Of a stretch of 18,349 bases of DNA, positions 9,001 to 15,000 are shown in pieces. The first letter of the stretch is position 1; each line of letters begins with the position of its first letter. Source of the stretch: a virus (taxonomy: Duplodnaviria; Heunggongvirae; Uroviricota; Caudoviricetes). Made by a program: the position numbers. Location: positions 1 through 18,349 of the IMG/VR virus record IMGVR_UViG_2654587685_000017. One strand, 5' to 3'.

Positions 9001-12000
9001 CCCATCGCTTTCAGTGCATGCAATACAGTTTCCATCGAAAATTTACCTCGTCAAAAATTCTCACATACCCTGACGTCCAACGTTTGACCGCCAGCTCTCC
9101 CAGTTAAAATTCACCCAACGACCACCATTCATGGTCATACGGTCCATCACCCGATCTCCGAGGAGTGTGCTCATCGCTGCGTGATTCAGGTTCGTCAGCA
9201 TTCCGACACTACGCATCGAAGCCGTTCTGCGGTCGACTATCTGGTTCAGCGTGACCTGCTCGTTGCGCGTATCCCGCTGCATGCCAATTTCATCAAGGAC
9301 CAGAAGGTCAACTCCACAAAGCTCCTGTAAAAATTTTTCCCCGGACTGGCCGTTGTCGTAGCCGTCATGCAACACGCTCATGACATCGGACACGGTGACG
9401 ATAATCACGCTTCTCCCCTTCGCCATCAGCCGATTGCCAATCGCTGCTGCCAGGTGATTTTTACCGGTACCAGGTTTACCGCTGAACACGAAGTTTGTAC
9501 ATCCGGTCATCAATTCATCGGCAATGGATTTCGCCTGGCTCAGAGCATGGCGCTGACCGTCGTTCTGCACCCGGTAGTTCCCGAATGAGCACTTCCTGTG
9601 AAGCGGCTAGATGCCCGCACGGTTCAGGATTTTTTCAACCCGCACCTGATGATTCAGGCGGTTAATCTCCTCGCTGCGTTTTCGTCCTTCAGCAAGTTGC
9701 CATTCCCGCCACTCCTCCACCGTCCGGTACGGTGGAACCGCCCCCTGTGGTGCAAGTCTGCGAATACGTTCAAGAACCCCAACTGCCGCAATGTTTTTCA
9801 TGACACGTCACCCCCTGAATCCCGGCGGTATTTCAGTGTCCGGTTCAGAAATGTGATTCACGCAACGCTGCGCGGGCGAACGCCCCAGGCGGATAACCAG
9901 TTCATCCCATTTTTCCCGGAGTTTTGCCGGACTCATGATGTTTTTTACCCAGAACGAATCCCGCTGGAGACGCCCAAACATTTCACAAATTTGTCTGTGA
10001 GTTCTGCCATCCAGCATCCGCATTGTCCGCACGTCATTGGCCCATGCAGTCCAGTTGGGTTCTTTCGGTCTCGTGATCTCGCCATCATCGCTGGCCGCCT
10101 GCTCGTAAAGACTCACGATTCGTCCCCAGATCCACTGTGCGCACACCAAATCTTCCTGACTTCCCCACTGGCGTTTTTTCGCACTGAACACAACCGCGTC
10201 AGGGTGTCGGGTTAAAAAATTCTGTTCAGCCGTCTGCGGGTCCGGTTGCGAAGCGTCCGGACAAGAAGATCTTTTATCTGACGGATCAGGTTTTAATACT
10301 GACGGATCGGGGTCAATCATCGCCCCCCTAATCGGCAGTTTGTTATCAACAGTTGATCCATCAAAATTTGACGGGTCAACCGTTGAGGGGGCAATATTTG
10401 ACGGGTCAACTGTTAACGGGTCATTTTTTGCCGGGCTAATTTTTCTTTTCGGTTTATATGACTCACGCGCCGCCGCCGCAGCTGCTTCGAGTTTTTCCAC
10501 ATTAAGCCGATAGATATTGCTTACATTACGCCCACCGACCTTACGCTCTTCCTTCGTCAGCCAGCCCTCTTTCGCCAGTTCTGCAATAGCCGATTTCACT
10601 GTGGATTCACTTCTTGCACCGATCTGACGCCGGATAGTTTCAATGGCAGGCCATGACACGCCCTCGTCATTGCTGTAGTCTGCAAGACGGGCCATAACCG
10701 CCACCCTGGATAAGATCATGCCGGTGAAGGCGCACCCTTCCCAGACAAGACCATGAAGCTTGCTGCTCATAAACCCCCCGAACACCGTGCTTTTAGTGCA
10801 TCACCACAGCATTCCCTGCCGGGCCGCCGCGATTCATCTGGTCATACAAAACAACCGCTGACGCAACAAAATCATCGACATCCTTCACCAGCCGATCCCT
10901 CCGTTCGACGATCTCACGGTAATATTCAGAACTGTGGCTGCGCATACGGGCCACCAGCAAAGGCGGCATCGCCTTTTCGATCGCCGGTAACAGAGCCTGC
11001 ATTTTTTCAACAGCATCAGGGGTGTCTTTATCCAGCCAACGGAAAATTTTCTGGGTATTACGGGCCAGGGCTTCCGGATGGCTGTCGTCATACAGTTCCG
11101 GGAACGTCATTCCCAGCTCGAAATACGCTTTGGTAATTTTCGCAGCCGGTACTTTTTCGCCGTCCGGATGCGCCCAGACATTCATCGCCATGCGGATGTG
11201 TTCATGCTTGATTTTCATGAATCAACTCCATCAGATAAGCATGCACTACAATCACCTTCAGCATGAACTACATGTGTTTGCCCCAAACGAATGCCGCTCG
11301 CATACTCAGGCCAAATAAGCTCCCAATCATGGGGTCGTAGCTCCGCCCTACTTACTTGGCCTTCCGTCGCAGATTCGATCATAAGGGCGCGGGTTGGAGA
11401 TATAGCTGTTCGTCCAGACGCCATTTGCGATAAGTAAGATGGCGATACACCAAGTCTGGCCGCGAATTTCTTAGCATCACCAACCCTTAATGATTTAATA
11501 AACTCTTTTAATGTCATACCTTCCTCGGTTTAGTGTTTTTTTGCGAGTTTAGTGTTTAATAAACCATTAAGTCAAGTATTTGCTTGTTTAGTGATTACTA
11601 AAGATAATTACCACATGCAAAAAAAAGAAATTCGCCGTTTACGTCTCAAGGAGTGGTTTAAAGATAAAACTCTGCCACCCAAAGAGAAGAGCTACCTATC
11701 TCAACTAATGAGTGGGAGAGCCTCGTTTGGAGAAAAGGCTGCCAGAAGAATAGAGCAAACATACGGGATGCCGGAAGGGTATCTGGATGCGGAATACGCA
11801 GAACAACCGGGGGTTTCTCCACCACATGCAGGGTTAACGTCTAATCAACTGGAATTATTGCAGATTTTTTCAGCCTTCCCTGAGGATGAGCAACGCCAGA
11901 TAATCAGCGAGTTAAAGCAGAAAAAAGAATCAATGGAAGATCTCATAGCGAGATGGATTGCGGCGCAAAAATGCCGCCGCGCCTGAGTTATAAAACCGGA

Positions 12001-15000
12001 GGAAACATGAATAGAGCCCTTTCACCAATGGTTTCTGAATTTGAAACCATTGAACAAGAAAACAGTTACAACGAATGGCTGCGTGCGAAAGTAGCAACGA
12101 GCCTTGCAGATCCGCGCCCAGCAATTCCCCATGACGAAGTTGAGCGCAGAATGGCAGAACGCTTTGCTAAGATGCGCAAGGAACGGAGCAAGCAGTAAAA
12201 TGTTACCCGTGTTATGGCTTGAAAGCGCAGATACCGACCTAGATGATATAACTAGTTATATTGCTCGTTTCGACATAGATGCGGCTGAACGCTTATGGCA
12301 GCGATTAAGGGGTTGTGTGCTGCCGTTATCCGAACATCCGTATTTATACCCACCAAGCGACAGAGTACCTGGCTTGCGTGAGATTGTAGCCCACCCTAAC
12401 TATATAATTCTATACCGCGTAACAACATCAAGCGTTGAAGTAGTAAACGTGATCCACGCAAGACGCCAGTTTCCCTAACTTTCACTACCAATAGAAACAT
12501 AACAACCGCAACGACTTTATCAAAAGCGTTGTGTTTGTTATGTCCCGCGGTTTAGTTTTTACTTGACTTAAGTTTAATGTTTATTAAACTAAAAATACCA
12601 ACCCACCCCGCCCCACAGAACGCAGGGAAATACTTCGAGTTACCCGGCAGTGGTCAGGGGTTAAGTAGCCAGCCCGAGGCGTATGAACATGACGGCAGGG
12701 TTCAACTTTAATAACTATGCAGCAGGTTTTTGTTCCGCTACCCCGGCGTTAAGGGGAAACAGAGGGTTTCTCAGTGGGCGAAGTCAAACATCAGAATGGA
12801 AGGCATCCCGGGATCGGCAAAGAAGCAGCAATGGCGCTTTATATTGACATCAGCGCCATTGCAGGACAGGTAAGAGTTATCAGAGCGGTAACTAAGCGGT
12901 ATGCGCCTTTACTTCAGAAAGTCTCTGGTGAGTGCACCGAAGATATTGTCAACGATTTCGTCATCGAACTGCGAGGACTCATCTTCAGTTACAAGGTGAC
13001 CACAATTTTTGCAGATGGCTCCCGCGAAACTGTCAGAGCCCTGCGGCTTAAAGGATGTGTCAAAGACTTCGCCACCACATTCTGGGCAAGAAAACTTGAT
13101 TGTATTCATAACCAATTTCCTCTCGAGTAACAGACCCCTCAGAGGATACCACCTCGCCTGACGTGGTTAAAAGCAGGCAACGCTAACCACAAGGAGCCGA
13201 CATGCAGAAACGAGAACCCGTCATCATCGCGCCAGACTATACCGATGATGAACTTTATGAGTGGATGCACCAGAAAATTAATGCAGCGCAGGATCTGAAA
13301 TGGGCCAATGAAGCCAGGGCTAAGCAGGCTGAAAATCTGTCCGCTCTGGAGCAGGATATCACCAATCTGGAAAAAGCAGCGGCATTAAGCATTGCCAGAA
13401 TGATTACATACCCGCGTTAATAGCTAACCAACGAAGCTAAGGTTGGTAATTAAGGAGTTCTCCACGGGTGAGGTGGAGTGCGTGCGCCGGACACGGGTGA
13501 GCATACGGCACTGACAGTTTACTGAAAGGATATTTCCCTGAAAAGTCAGACCATAACGCGAAAGCGCACGGCGAGGTAGCTGGTTCATAGATAGCCTGTC
13601 GTTAAATTTTCGTCGACCGTGCGCTTCCGGTTGTGGCAATCCGCGAAATGGCGCGGCGGTAAGTATGGAGGGGTTATTCCTTCCCCCGTTGAGGACACCG
13701 GGTTGTCAGGTTGACCATACGCTTAAGTGACAACCCCGCTGCAACGCCCTCTGTTATCAATTTTCTGGTGACGTTTGGCGGTATCAGTTTTACTCCGTGA
13801 CTGCTCTGCCGCCCTTTTTAAAGTGAATTTTGTGATGCGGTGAATGCGGCTGAGCGCACGCGGAACAGTTAAAACCAAAAACAGTGTTATGGGGGGATTC
13901 TCTGTATCCGGCGTTAATTGTTAACTGGTTAACGTCACCTGGAGGCACCAGGCACCGCATCACAAAATTCATTGTTGAGGACGCGATAATGAAAACGTTA
14001 TTACCAAACGTTAATACGTCTGAAGGTTGTTTTGAAATTGGTGTCACTATCAGTAACCCAGTATTTACTGAAGATGCCATTAACAAGAGAAAACAAGAAC
14101 GGGAGCTATTAAATAAAATATGCATTCTTTCAATGCTGGCCCGTTTACGTCCGATACAAAAAGGATGCTGCACAATGAATACAGCATTTGCACTTGTTCT
14201 GACAGTTTTTCTTGTTTCCGGAGAGCCAGTTGATATTGCAGTCAGTGTTCACAGGACAATGCAGTAGTGTATGACTGCAGCAACCGAACAGAAAATTCCC
14301 GGTAACTGTTACCCGGTCGATAAAGTTATTCACCAGGATAATAACGAAATCCCGGCAGGTCTTTAAAACAGTTCCGTAATAAATATCCGGTTTCATTCTT
14401 ATATGCCAGCAATGGCAGGGATTTGTTCACCCTTAAATCTGTAATGAGGTTAAAACAAAATGAGTAAAGTCTTTATTTGCGCCGCCATTCCGGACGAACA
14501 GACAACAAAGGAAGAAGGCGCAGTCGCTGTAGCCACAGCCATTGAAGCCGGCGACGAACGCCGCGCCCGAGCAAAATTTCACTGGCAATTCCTGGAACAT
14601 TATCCGGCTGCTCAGGACTGCGCTTATAAATTTCTTGTCTGCGAGGATAAACCCGGCATACCCCGCCCTGCCCTCGATTCATGGGATGCTGAATATATGC
14701 AGGAAAACCGCTGGGATGAGGAGTCTGCTTCCTTTGTCCCGGTTGAGACTGAATCAGATCCGATGAACGTCACTTTTGACAAGCTGGCCCCTGAAGTACA
14801 GAACGCTGTCATGGTTAAGTTCGACACATGTGAAAACATCACCGTTGATATGGTGATTAGCGCGCAGGAATTGTTGCAGGAAGACATGGCAACATTCGAC
14901 GGACATATCGTTGAAGCGTTGATGAAAATGCCAGAAGTTAACGCCATGTATCCGGAGCTTAAGCTGCATGCCATCGGGTGGGTTAAGCATAAATGTAAGC

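What the first reader, a model, noticed from the sequence alone, without database searches (positions are those of the whole stretch)
11615..12478. Three-gene repressor-antitoxin-ParE toxin module sits where lambda carries rexAB
A DicA/PaaR2-like repressor, a 63-aa antitoxin and a 92-aa ParE-type toxin are co-directional and tightly spaced (antitoxin stop 1 nt before toxin ATG), bounded by operator clusters on both sides. This ties toxin-antitoxin expression to the prophage immunity switch. The arrangement corresponds to the described paaR2-paaA2-parE2 system of O157 cryptic prophages, so it is a known system rather than a new one.
Basis: partly seen in the sequence, partly recalled or inferred. 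Interest (0 to 1): 0.45.

Follow-up and report, generated by a model that had tools for sequence, protein, structure and literature searches.

The report
Known paaR2-paaA2-parE2 prophage toxin-antitoxin module

Summary
Window 11615-11986 (+), 12007-12198 (+) and 12200-12478 (+) encode a 123-aa repressor, a 63-aa antitoxin and a 92-aa toxin. The antitoxin stop lies 1 nt before the toxin ATG.

The toxin is 92/92 identical to the crystallised E. coli O157 ParE2. The antitoxin is 62/62 identical to PaaA2. Repressor residues 1-66 are identical to the crystallised PaaR2 DNA-binding domain. The full repressor differs from an O157:H7 copy by one linker residue, V67 instead of G67.

GTTTAGT-type operator repeats occur only on the two sides of the operon. 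They overlap divergent promoters on the left (PR/PRM) and a rightward promoter on the right (PL). The divergent neighbours are YdaS (Cro analogue) and YdaT (CII analogue).

All of this is published, including the statement that paaA2-parE2 replaces lambda rexA-rexB (Hallez 2010; Jurenas 2021, PMC8630535; Prolic-Kalinsek 2023, PMC9986795).

The 1.4-kb cassette is at least 99% identical in 577 of 5,426 complete E. coli genomes.

Verdict: real, correctly interpreted, already known, low interest. ParE2's molecular target and the module's natural role remain open.

The parts
10793..11218 (-). ydaT, the CII analogue that activates the alternative promoter PRE for the paaR2 operon
   Evidence: Pfam YdaT_toxin, E 2.7e-10. 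Matches PDB 8bt1 at E 1e-92. 141/141 identical to the O157:H7 TR01 copy. Function from PMC8630535 and PMC9986795.
11208..11225 (.). YdaT high-affinity operator OM, TTGATTTTCATGAATCAA, at the ydaS/ydaT junction
   Evidence: Exact match to the published TTGATTN6AATCAA site, and the only match in the window. Footprint described in PMC9986795.
11215..11517 (-). ydaS, the Cro analogue, transcribed divergently from paaR2
   Evidence: Pfam YdaS_toxin/HTH_3. Matches PDB 8c7k 'Phage antirepressor protein Cro' at E 7e-63. 100/100 identical to the O157:H7 TR01 copy.
11528..11603 (.). OR operator cluster. GTTTAGT repeats at 11528, 11547 and 11586; 18-bp palindromes at 11547-11564 and 11586-11603
   Evidence: The 97-bp intergenic region was footprinted by PaaR2 (about 78 bp) and by YdaS (PMC8630535).
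11546..11575 (-). PR933P promoter (TTGACT-18-TAAACT) driving ydaS-ydaT
   Evidence: Consensus scan. Promoter mapped by 5' RACE in PMC8630535.
11580..11608 (+). PRM933P promoter: -35 TTGCTT 11580-11585, 17-nt spacer, -10 GATAAT 11603-11608. The A of the paaR2 ATG (11615) is 7 nt downstream, giving a leaderless mRNA
   Evidence: Read directly from the sequence. Leaderless start shown by 5' RACE and N-terminal sequencing (MQKKE) in PMC8630535.
11615..11986 (+). paaR2, a CI-analogue repressor of 123 aa: N-terminal HTH domain (1-66), linker, C-terminal oligomerisation domain
   Evidence: Residues 1-66 identical to PDB 7nkv/8c3k/8c3l. 122/123 identical to the O157:H7 TR01 copy, with V67 here and G67 there. 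C-terminus resembles that of DicA.
12007..12198 (+). paaA2, a 63-aa antitoxin without a DNA-binding domain
   Evidence: 62/62 identical to PDB 3zbe/5cw7. Pfam PF21217 PaaA2, E 1e-19.
12200..12478 (+). parE2, a 92-aa ParE-family toxin
   Evidence: 92/92 identical to PDB 5cw7/5cze chain 'Plasmid stabilization protein ParE'. Pfam PF05016, E 1.9e-16.
12497..12543 (+). Stable hairpin 19 nt after the parE2 stop. Probable end of the operon and insulator from PL (inferred)
   Evidence: Inverted repeat I3 with 22-nt arms. Folding energy -24 kcal/mol, z = -4.65, 0 of 200 shuffles as stable. No T-run follows, so the terminator scan did not call it.
12550..12593 (+). OL operator cluster (repeats at 12550 and 12572, palindrome 12568-12593), overlapping the PL933P promoter TTGACT-16-TAAACT at 12563-12590
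   Evidence: The -35 and -10 hexamers are the same as those of PR. A PL933P reporter was repressed about 100-fold by PaaR2 or YdaS (PMC8630535).

Best explanation
The region is the paaR2-paaA2-parE2 operon, a three-component type II toxin-antitoxin system embedded in the immunity region of a CP-933P/Sp12-type lambdoid prophage of E. coli.

How it works:
- PaaR2 is the prophage's CI analogue. It is made from a leaderless transcript that starts at its own ATG (promoter PRM) and also carries paaA2 and parE2.
- PaaR2 binds the repeated GTTTAGT-type operators between paaR2 and ydaS. There it represses PR (ydaS-ydaT). It stimulates its own promoter at low levels and represses it at high levels.
- PaaR2 also represses PL at the second operator cluster, just downstream of parE2.
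- YdaS (Cro analogue) competes for the same sites, which makes the switch bistable.
- YdaT (CII analogue) binds the site at 11208-11225 and turns on an alternative promoter that reads into the operon.
- PaaA2 has no DNA-binding domain. It neutralises ParE2 by direct binding and is degraded by ClpAP/ClpXP.
- If the cassette is lost, ParE2 is freed. It associates with the nucleoid, induces SOS and kills the cell. The module is therefore addictive.

Shown versus inferred:
- Shown here: gene anatomy, protein identities, operator and promoter anatomy, and distribution.
- Shown in the literature for identical sequences: binding, regulation, bistability, toxicity, neutralisation and plasmid stabilisation.
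- Inferred: that this copy behaves the same (it differs by one nucleotide from the O157:H7 cassette); that the hairpin at 12497-12543 ends the operon; and that the natural role is to stabilise the immunity region.
For: - Exact identity of ParE2, PaaA2 and the PaaR2 N-terminal domain to the crystallised E. coli O157 proteins.
- YdaT and YdaS also match the solved CP-933P proteins.
- The 1,421-bp cassette (window 11200-12620) is 100% identical to O55:H7 DEC5E and 99.9% identical to many O157:H7 genomes.
- Pfam hits to PaaA2 and ParE_toxin.
- Operator repeats are confined to the two flanks and significantly enriched.
- PR and PL hexamers are identical, TTGACT/TAAACT.
- A -10 GATAAT lies 7 nt before the paaR2 ATG.
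- The YdaT site is present exactly.
- Published experiments: PMC8630535; PMC9986795.
- All 83 related loci examined keep the order YdaT-like gene, then repressor with a PaaR-type C-terminus, then PaaA, then ParE.
Against: Nothing contradicts the identification.

Limits:
- The molecular target of ParE2 is still unknown.
- No ParE2 activation was detected in either switch state, so the biological role remains a hypothesis.
- From the text read, direct binding of PaaR2 to OL is inferred from reporter repression, not from a footprint.
- PaaR2 here carries V67 rather than the G67 of the O157:H7 TR01 copy, and this variant is untested.
- PaaR2 has no Pfam hit and no S24 peptidase domain, so it is a functional analogue of lambda CI, not a homologue.
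Confidence: 0.95

Rival explanations
1. The TA pair is a functional counterpart of RexAB, a lysogen-expressed phage-exclusion (abortive infection) module. A superinfecting phage shuts off host transcription, the labile PaaA2 is degraded by ClpXP/ClpAP, and freed ParE2 kills the cell before the phage completes its cycle.
For: - It occupies the same position as rexAB, is co-transcribed with the repressor and is expressed in the lysogenic state.
- PaaA2 is protease-labile.
- The TA is invariably linked to the repressor in 83 of 83 related loci.
- Genome counts are nearly equal: 593 genomes carry the ydaS-paaR2 segment and 594 carry the TA at 95% identity or more.
Against: - None of the three proteins hits any PADLOC defence model.
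- No phage-challenge data turned up in the papers found.
- The authors who studied the system propose addiction or stabilisation of the immunity region instead.
Confidence: 0.1
2. PaaR2 is merely the dedicated transcriptional regulator of a three-gene TA system (a 'split antitoxin') and not the prophage immunity repressor. On this reading, its location in a prophage is incidental.
For: This is the original description as a three-component TA whose regulator keeps the antitoxin:toxin ratio (Hallez 2010, as summarised). PaaA2 lacks a DNA-binding domain.
Against: - The same operator repeats also flank a PL-type promoter on the far side of the operon.
- PaaR2 represses PR (ydaS-ydaT) more strongly than its own promoter and generates bistability with YdaS.
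- The gene lies exactly where cI and dicA lie.
- Heteroimmune relatives swap the HTH domain together with the Cro-like gene, as immunity regions do.
Confidence: 0.04
3. The three ORFs and the repeats are chance features, not a functional module.
For: None.
Against: - Identity to solved structures.
- At least 99% conservation in 577 genomes.
- Operator enrichment with 0 of 200 shuffles reaching the observed count.
Confidence: 0.01

Closest known systems
paaR2-paaA2-parE2 of cryptic prophage CP-933P (E. coli O157:H7 EDL933), identical to Sp12 of strain Sakai
   Same: Same three genes, same order and spacing, and the same OR/PR/PRM/PL/OL anatomy. The ydaS-ydaT neighbours are also the same. ParE2, PaaA2, YdaS and YdaT are 100% identical to an O157:H7 copy, and the cassette DNA is 99.9% identical.
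   Different: - One nucleotide (window 11814, T instead of G) gives PaaR2 V67 instead of G67 in the inter-domain linker.
- The surrounding prophage backbone differs. Only 5 of 5,426 genomes cover at least 80% of the 18-kb window.
- In the closest genome (fS25a) the integrase lies next to potC. In O157:H7 TR01 the integrase remnant lies on the ynfA side of the prophage.
- The exonuclease gene is intact here but interrupted by an IS in O157:H7 TR01.
Lambda immunity region (cI-rexA-rexB between OR/PRM and OL/PL, with divergent cro-cII)
   Same: - Same layout and logic: a leaderless repressor gene co-transcribed with two accessory genes.
- Operators on both sides.
- Divergent Cro and CII analogues, and a bistable switch.
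   Different: - No sequence homology.
- PaaR2 lacks the S24 autocleavage domain and does not respond to mitomycin C.
- There are four equally spaced palindromes rather than three operators.
- The accessory genes are a ParE-type TA pair rather than RexA/RexB.
Paralogous and heteroimmune paaR-paaA-parE cassettes, for example the second O157:H7 system in CP-933M and the loci L004-L006 and L054-L086
   Same: Same order: YdaT-like gene, Cro-like gene, repressor, PaaA, ParE. The repressor C-terminal domain is conserved (50-72% identity). PaaA is 71-97% identical and ParE 65-96%.
   Different: - The repressor HTH domain and the Cro-like gene are unrelated, indicating a different immunity specificity.
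- The last 18 or so residues of PaaA and the first 40 or so of ParE fall into two co-varying types.
- Some loci carry two repressor genes in tandem.
Classical parDE (plasmid RK2; Vibrio cholerae parDE2)
   Same: The toxin has the ParE/RelE fold family (Pfam PF05016; weak matches to PDB ParE1 3kxe and others). Both are addictive plasmid or element stabilisation systems.
   Different: In parDE the antitoxin ParD carries its own DNA-binding domain and autoregulates. Here the antitoxin has none, and regulation is delegated to the prophage repressor. The target of ParE2 has not been established as gyrase.

Membership tests
paaR-paaA-parE three-component type II TA system | Toxin of the ParE family | tested here: met
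   Pfam PF05016 ParE_toxin, 60.9 bits against a cutoff of 23. 92/92 identical to ParE2 in PDB 5cw7.
paaR-paaA-parE three-component type II TA system | PaaA-family antitoxin without a DNA-binding domain, encoded immediately upstream of the toxin | tested here: met
   Pfam PF21217 PaaA2, 70.7 bits against a cutoff of 27, with no other domain. 62/62 identical to PDB 3zbe. The stop lies 1 nt before the toxin ATG.
paaR-paaA-parE three-component type II TA system | Co-oriented upstream regulator gene paaR in the same operon | tested here: met
   Residues 1-66 are identical to the PaaR2 structures 7nkv/8c3k/8c3l. 122/123 identical to an O157:H7 copy. A 20-nt gap with an SD sequence precedes paaA2. 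The co-transcript itself is known only from the literature.
paaR-paaA-parE three-component type II TA system | Toxicity of ParE2, neutralisation by PaaA2, and Clp-dependent post-segregational killing | not testable with these tools
   Published for identical proteins (Hallez 2010 as cited in PMC8630535).
Lambdoid immunity switch (functional class) | Divergent repressor and Cro-like genes sharing a multi-operator region that overlaps both promoters | tested here: met
   A 97-bp intergenic region holds three GTTTAGT repeats and two 18-bp palindromes that overlap PR and PRM.
Lambdoid immunity switch (functional class) | A second operator cluster with a PL-type promoter on the far side of the repressor operon | tested here: met
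   Repeats at 12550 and 12572, a palindrome at 12568-12593, and TTGACT-16-TAAACT at 12563-12590.
Lambda CI / LexA-type repressor family (homology) | C-terminal S24 peptidase domain allowing RecA-stimulated autocleavage | tested here: not met
   PaaR2 (123 aa) has no Pfam hit at all. The literature likewise reports that it lacks the peptidase motif. It is a functional analogue, not a family member.
DicA repressor family (NCBIfam NF007257) | Full-length match above the curated cutoff | tested here: not met
   Only residues 71-119 match model positions 82-130, at 28.5 bits against a cutoff of 101. The shared part is the C-terminal domain. The HTH domain is different.
RexAB exclusion system | Homology to RexA/RexB | tested here: not met
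   The two proteins hit only PaaA2 and ParE_toxin in Pfam and nothing in PADLOC. The equivalence is positional only.
RexAB exclusion system | Exclusion of superinfecting phages | not testable with these tools
   No such data in the papers found.

The most novel reading that the evidence does not exclude
The paaA-parE pair, together with the PaaR-type repressor C-terminal domain, may be a fixed component of a whole family of heteroimmune YdaS/YdaT-type lambdoid immunity regions. It would act in the lysogen like RexAB, as a phage-exclusion or abortive-infection device triggered when repressor-operon transcription collapses, rather than only as an addiction module. The evidence here does not exclude this. 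The linkage is invariant in 83 of 83 loci, and the genome counts are 593 versus 594. No test of phage defence was found in the papers located.
Probability: 0.1. Interest if true: 0.5.

Novelty: already known. Interest (0 to 1): 0.08.

Why it matters
For annotation, it settles that window 10793-12593 is a complete and apparently intact CP-933P-type immunity switch with its embedded TA module. The genes RefSeq labels 'hypothetical protein' and 'RelB family antitoxin' are PaaR2 and PaaA2. The 'toxin YdaT family protein' is a CII-like regulator, not a toxin.

Biologically it adds nothing new beyond small comparative points. The cassette travels as a unit between different lambdoid backbones, including an apparently complete phage genome (Evi). 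It is tightly linked to its repressor across E. coli. The open questions belong to the published system: the target of ParE2 and the natural role of the module.

Tried and rejected
- PADLOC scan of the five immunity-region proteins: no defence-system hit apart from a marginal HTH match for YdaS. There is thus no database support for a defence role.
- Pfam on PaaR2: no hit. Its identity rests on the PDB match and a sub-threshold DicA C-terminal match.
- The consensus terminator scan did not call the hairpin after parE2 because no T-run follows it. Folding shows it is unusually stable. Its terminator role remains an inference.
- Search for a PaaR2-type immunity region without the TA, which would show the TA as a recent insertion. 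None was seen in the spread of hits. Segment counts are almost equal, 593 genomes against 594 at 95% identity or more. I did not intersect the per-genome lists, so rare exceptions are possible.
- The viral-contig scan was seeded with ParE2. The 83/83 linkage therefore says the TA always comes with such a repressor, not the converse.
- One search failed because of a one-base coordinate error on my part (paaA2 starts at 12007, not 12008). One search failed on a file name. Both were repeated correctly.
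Full report
**1. What is in the sequence**

Between 11615 and 12478 the + strand carries three ORFs in a row.
- A 123-aa protein: ATG 11615, TGA 11984-11986.
- A 20-nt spacer containing GGAGG.
- A 63-aa protein: ATG 12007, TAA 12196-12198.
- One base, then a 92-aa protein: ATG 12200, TAA 12476-12478.

On the opposite strand, immediately to the left, lie three further genes:
- a 100-aa HTH protein (11215-11517);
- a 141-aa protein (10793-11218);
- a replication-initiator-like gene (9808-10785).

**2. Identity of the proteins**

- The 92-aa protein is 92/92 identical to the ParE2 chain of PDB 5cw7/5cze and matches Pfam ParE_toxin (E 1.9e-16).
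- The 63-aa protein is 62/62 identical to PaaA2 of PDB 3zbe/5cw7 and matches Pfam PF21217 'PaaA2'.
- Residues 1-66 of the 123-aa protein are identical to PDB 7nkv/8c3k/8c3l, the N-terminal DNA-binding domain of PaaR2, deposited as 'Phage repressor protein CI'.
- The full-length protein is 122/123 identical to the copy in E. coli O157:H7 TR01. The one difference is V67 here against G67 there, caused by a single T/G difference at window 11814.
- PaaR2 has no Pfam hit. Its residues 71-119 match the C-terminal part of NCBI's DicA model below threshold.
- The divergent neighbours match solved structures of CP-933P YdaT (8bt1) and YdaS (8c7k, 'Phage antirepressor protein Cro').

**3. Operators and promoters**

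- The motif GTTTAGTDWTTW (up to 1 mismatch) occurs 8 times in the window against 0.99 expected, and 0 of 200 shuffles reach that count. Five of the eight hits lie at 11528, 11547, 11586 and at 12550, 12572, that is on the two sides of the operon.
- The only four 18-mers in the window with at least 13/18 matches to the published palindrome are 11547-11564, 11586-11603, 12550-12567 and 12572-12589.
- A promoter-like site TTGACT-18-TAAACT points leftward at 11575-11546 (PR). One with the same hexamers, TTGACT-16-TAAACT, points rightward at 12563-12590 (PL).
- Upstream of paaR2 the sequence reads TTGCTT, 17 nt, GATAAT, 6 nt, ATG. A transcript would therefore start at or next to the ATG, which is a leaderless gene.
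- The published YdaT site TTGATTN6AATCAA occurs once in the window, exactly at the ydaS/ydaT junction (11208-11225).
- A stable hairpin follows parE2 at 12497-12543 (-24 kcal/mol, z = -4.65). It probably separates the operon from PL. This is an inference, because no T-run follows the stem.

**4. What is already published**

Jurenas et al. 2021 (PMC8630535) studied this same locus in CP-933P of O157:H7 EDL933. They showed the following.
- paaR2 is leaderless (5' RACE; N-terminal sequence MQKKE).
- PaaR2 and YdaS footprint the 97-bp intergenic region, which contains GTTTAGTAA-type palindromes.
- Both proteins repress PRM and PR. Low levels of PaaR2 activate PRM.
- YdaT activates a PRE-like promoter.
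- The locus is bistable.
- The TA is transcribed in both states without detectable ParE2 activity.
- The region stabilises an unstable plasmid.

The system was first described as a three-component TA by Hallez et al. 2010 (cited). That work also showed that PaaA2 is labile to ClpAP/ClpXP and that ParE2 induces SOS and associates with the nucleoid.

**5. Where the window comes from, and distribution**

- The 1,421-bp cassette (11200-12620) is 100% identical in O55:H7 DEC5E and strain fS25a, and 99.9% identical in many O157:H7 genomes. It occurs in 633 of 5,426 complete E. coli genomes, at 99% identity or more in 577.
- The whole 18-kb window is covered at 80% or more in only 5 genomes. The best is fS25a (93% coverage, 99.7% identity), where the prophage integrase lies next to potC.
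- In O157:H7 TR01 the prophage has a different left arm and an IS-interrupted exonuclease gene.
- The window is therefore a relative of CP-933P carrying the same immunity cassette, not CP-933P itself.
- The cassette also occurs at 98.5% identity in 'Escherichia phage Evi' (LR597642), a 40-kb record with a full set of head, tail and lysis genes. There parE2 is intact but unannotated.

**6. Comparative anatomy (extra)**

- I examined 83 related loci: 80 viral or prophage contigs found with ParE2, plus three E. coli loci. Every one has PaaA directly upstream of ParE, preceded by a repressor with a PaaR-type C-terminal domain, and has a YdaT-like match (31-100% identity) on the opposite strand. 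The one exception for YdaT is L007, whose contig ends within the ydaS-like gene.
- The repressor HTH domain and the Cro-like gene fall into unrelated types, which are heteroimmune variants. The repressor C-terminus (50-72% identity), PaaA (71-97%) and ParE (65-96%) are retained.
- The ydaS-OR-paaR2(N-terminal) segment is found at 95% identity or more in 593 genomes, and the TA segment in 594. In E. coli this immunity type and this TA are thus practically always together.
- This fits the published idea that the TA stabilises the immunity region, but it does not prove it.

**7. Mechanism and confidence**

The best explanation is the published one.
- The prophage repressor doubles as the regulator of a ParE-type TA pair, which is co-transcribed with it from a leaderless PRM.
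- PaaA2 neutralises ParE2 by direct binding, and is kept in supply by that transcription and by YdaT-driven PRE transcription.
- Loss of the cassette frees ParE2, which kills the cell.

Confidence in the identification is about 0.95.

A RexAB-like phage-exclusion role is not excluded (about 0.1). It has no support from PADLOC or from the papers found.

**8. Verdict**

The system is already known and characterised in depth, with structures of PaaA2, ParE2, YdaS and YdaT and of the PaaR2 N-terminal domain. Interest is low.

Noticed in passing
window 11813-11815 (PaaR2 codon 67): The only difference between this cassette and the O157:H7 TR01 cassette is T instead of G at 11814, giving PaaR2 V67 rather than G67. 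Phage Evi has E66-I67 at the same place. The variable spot lies in the linker directly after the crystallised HTH domain (residues 1-66). The rest of the protein is invariant among these copies.
   Followed up: partly
L002 (Escherichia phage Evi, LR597642) 19594-21441: A 40-kb phage record with a complete set of head, tail, lysis and terminase genes carries the same ydaT-ydaS-paaR2-paaA2-parE2-OL cassette at 98.5% identity. parE2 (L002 21001-21279) is intact but not annotated. The module is usually described as belonging to cryptic prophages. I did not establish whether Evi is an active phage.
   Followed up: partly
L004-L006 and L054-L086, compared with window 10793-12478: There is a family of heteroimmune immunity regions. 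The repressor N-terminal HTH domain and the Cro-like gene are swapped for unrelated ones. The repressor C-terminal domain, PaaA, ParE and YdaT are retained. The last 18 or so residues of PaaA (ERRMAERFAKMRKERSKQ versus IAEMENLIAQIAVTNRSE) and the first 40 or so residues of ParE fall into two types that go together.
   Followed up: partly
L004 2818-3681 (also L054, L055, L065-L069, L071-L074): Some relatives carry two repressor genes in tandem upstream of the TA. One is PaaR2-like (123 aa, about 76% identical). It is followed by a second HTH repressor with the PaaR-type C-terminus, whose reading frame runs on into the start of paaA.
   Followed up: no
window 10793-11218 versus L008-L053: Next to identical ydaS and paaR2 genes, YdaT is either about 98-100% or only about 83-86% identical (90% in one locus, L012). 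This points to a recurrent recombination junction at or inside ydaT, near the YdaT operator/PRE region.
   Followed up: no
window 12774-13130 (+) and 12909-13115 (-): Just downstream of PL, two overlapping antisense ORFs compete. RefSeq annotates the minus-strand 66-68-aa zinc-ribbon protein (ECs_2282 family). The phage Evi record annotates the plus-strand 118-aa ORF. Only the plus-strand ORF would be transcribed from PL. No N-like antiterminator was recognised here.
   Followed up: no
window 13763-13814 (+): DicF antisense sRNA (Rfam RF00039, 76.7 bits), downstream of ydfC (13202-13420) and upstream of dicB. This is the Qin/dicB-type left operon.
   Followed up: no
window 13989-14267 (+): Compared with strain fS25a, dicB here has lost its stop codon and reads in frame into the first 30 codons of ydfD. 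ydfD then hits a TAG where fS25a has GAG. The dicB-ydfD pair therefore looks mutated in this copy, through decay or a sequencing error.
   Followed up: partly
window 6591-6916 (-): A second, type I toxin-antitoxin system lies in the same prophage. The hokD/mok ORF is at 6591-6803, with the sok antisense RNA (Rfam RF01794, 113.5 bits) at 6741-6916.
   Followed up: no
window 1351-1540 (-), 2240-2313 (-), 2418-2490 (-): The STnc100 sRNA family (132 bits) and two tRNA genes (annotated Arg and Ile in the closest genome) lie in the late-gene regulatory region. Window 723-2223, which holds STnc100, has no counterpart in either fS25a or O157:H7 TR01.
   Followed up: no
window 14460-16931 (+) and 17231-18349 (+): The 823-aa exonuclease gene is intact here, but split by IS1203 in O157:H7 TR01. 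The integrase at the window's end lies next to potC in the closest genome. In O157:H7 TR01 the integrase remnant lies on the ynfA side of the prophage. The same immunity cassette thus sits in prophages at different chromosomal sites.
   Followed up: partly
RefSeq annotation of the cassette (L001, L003): PGAP names PaaR2 'hypothetical protein', PaaA2 'RelB family antitoxin' (or hypothetical) and YdaT 'toxin YdaT family protein'. Published work shows that YdaT is a CII-like regulator and not a toxin.
   Followed up: yes
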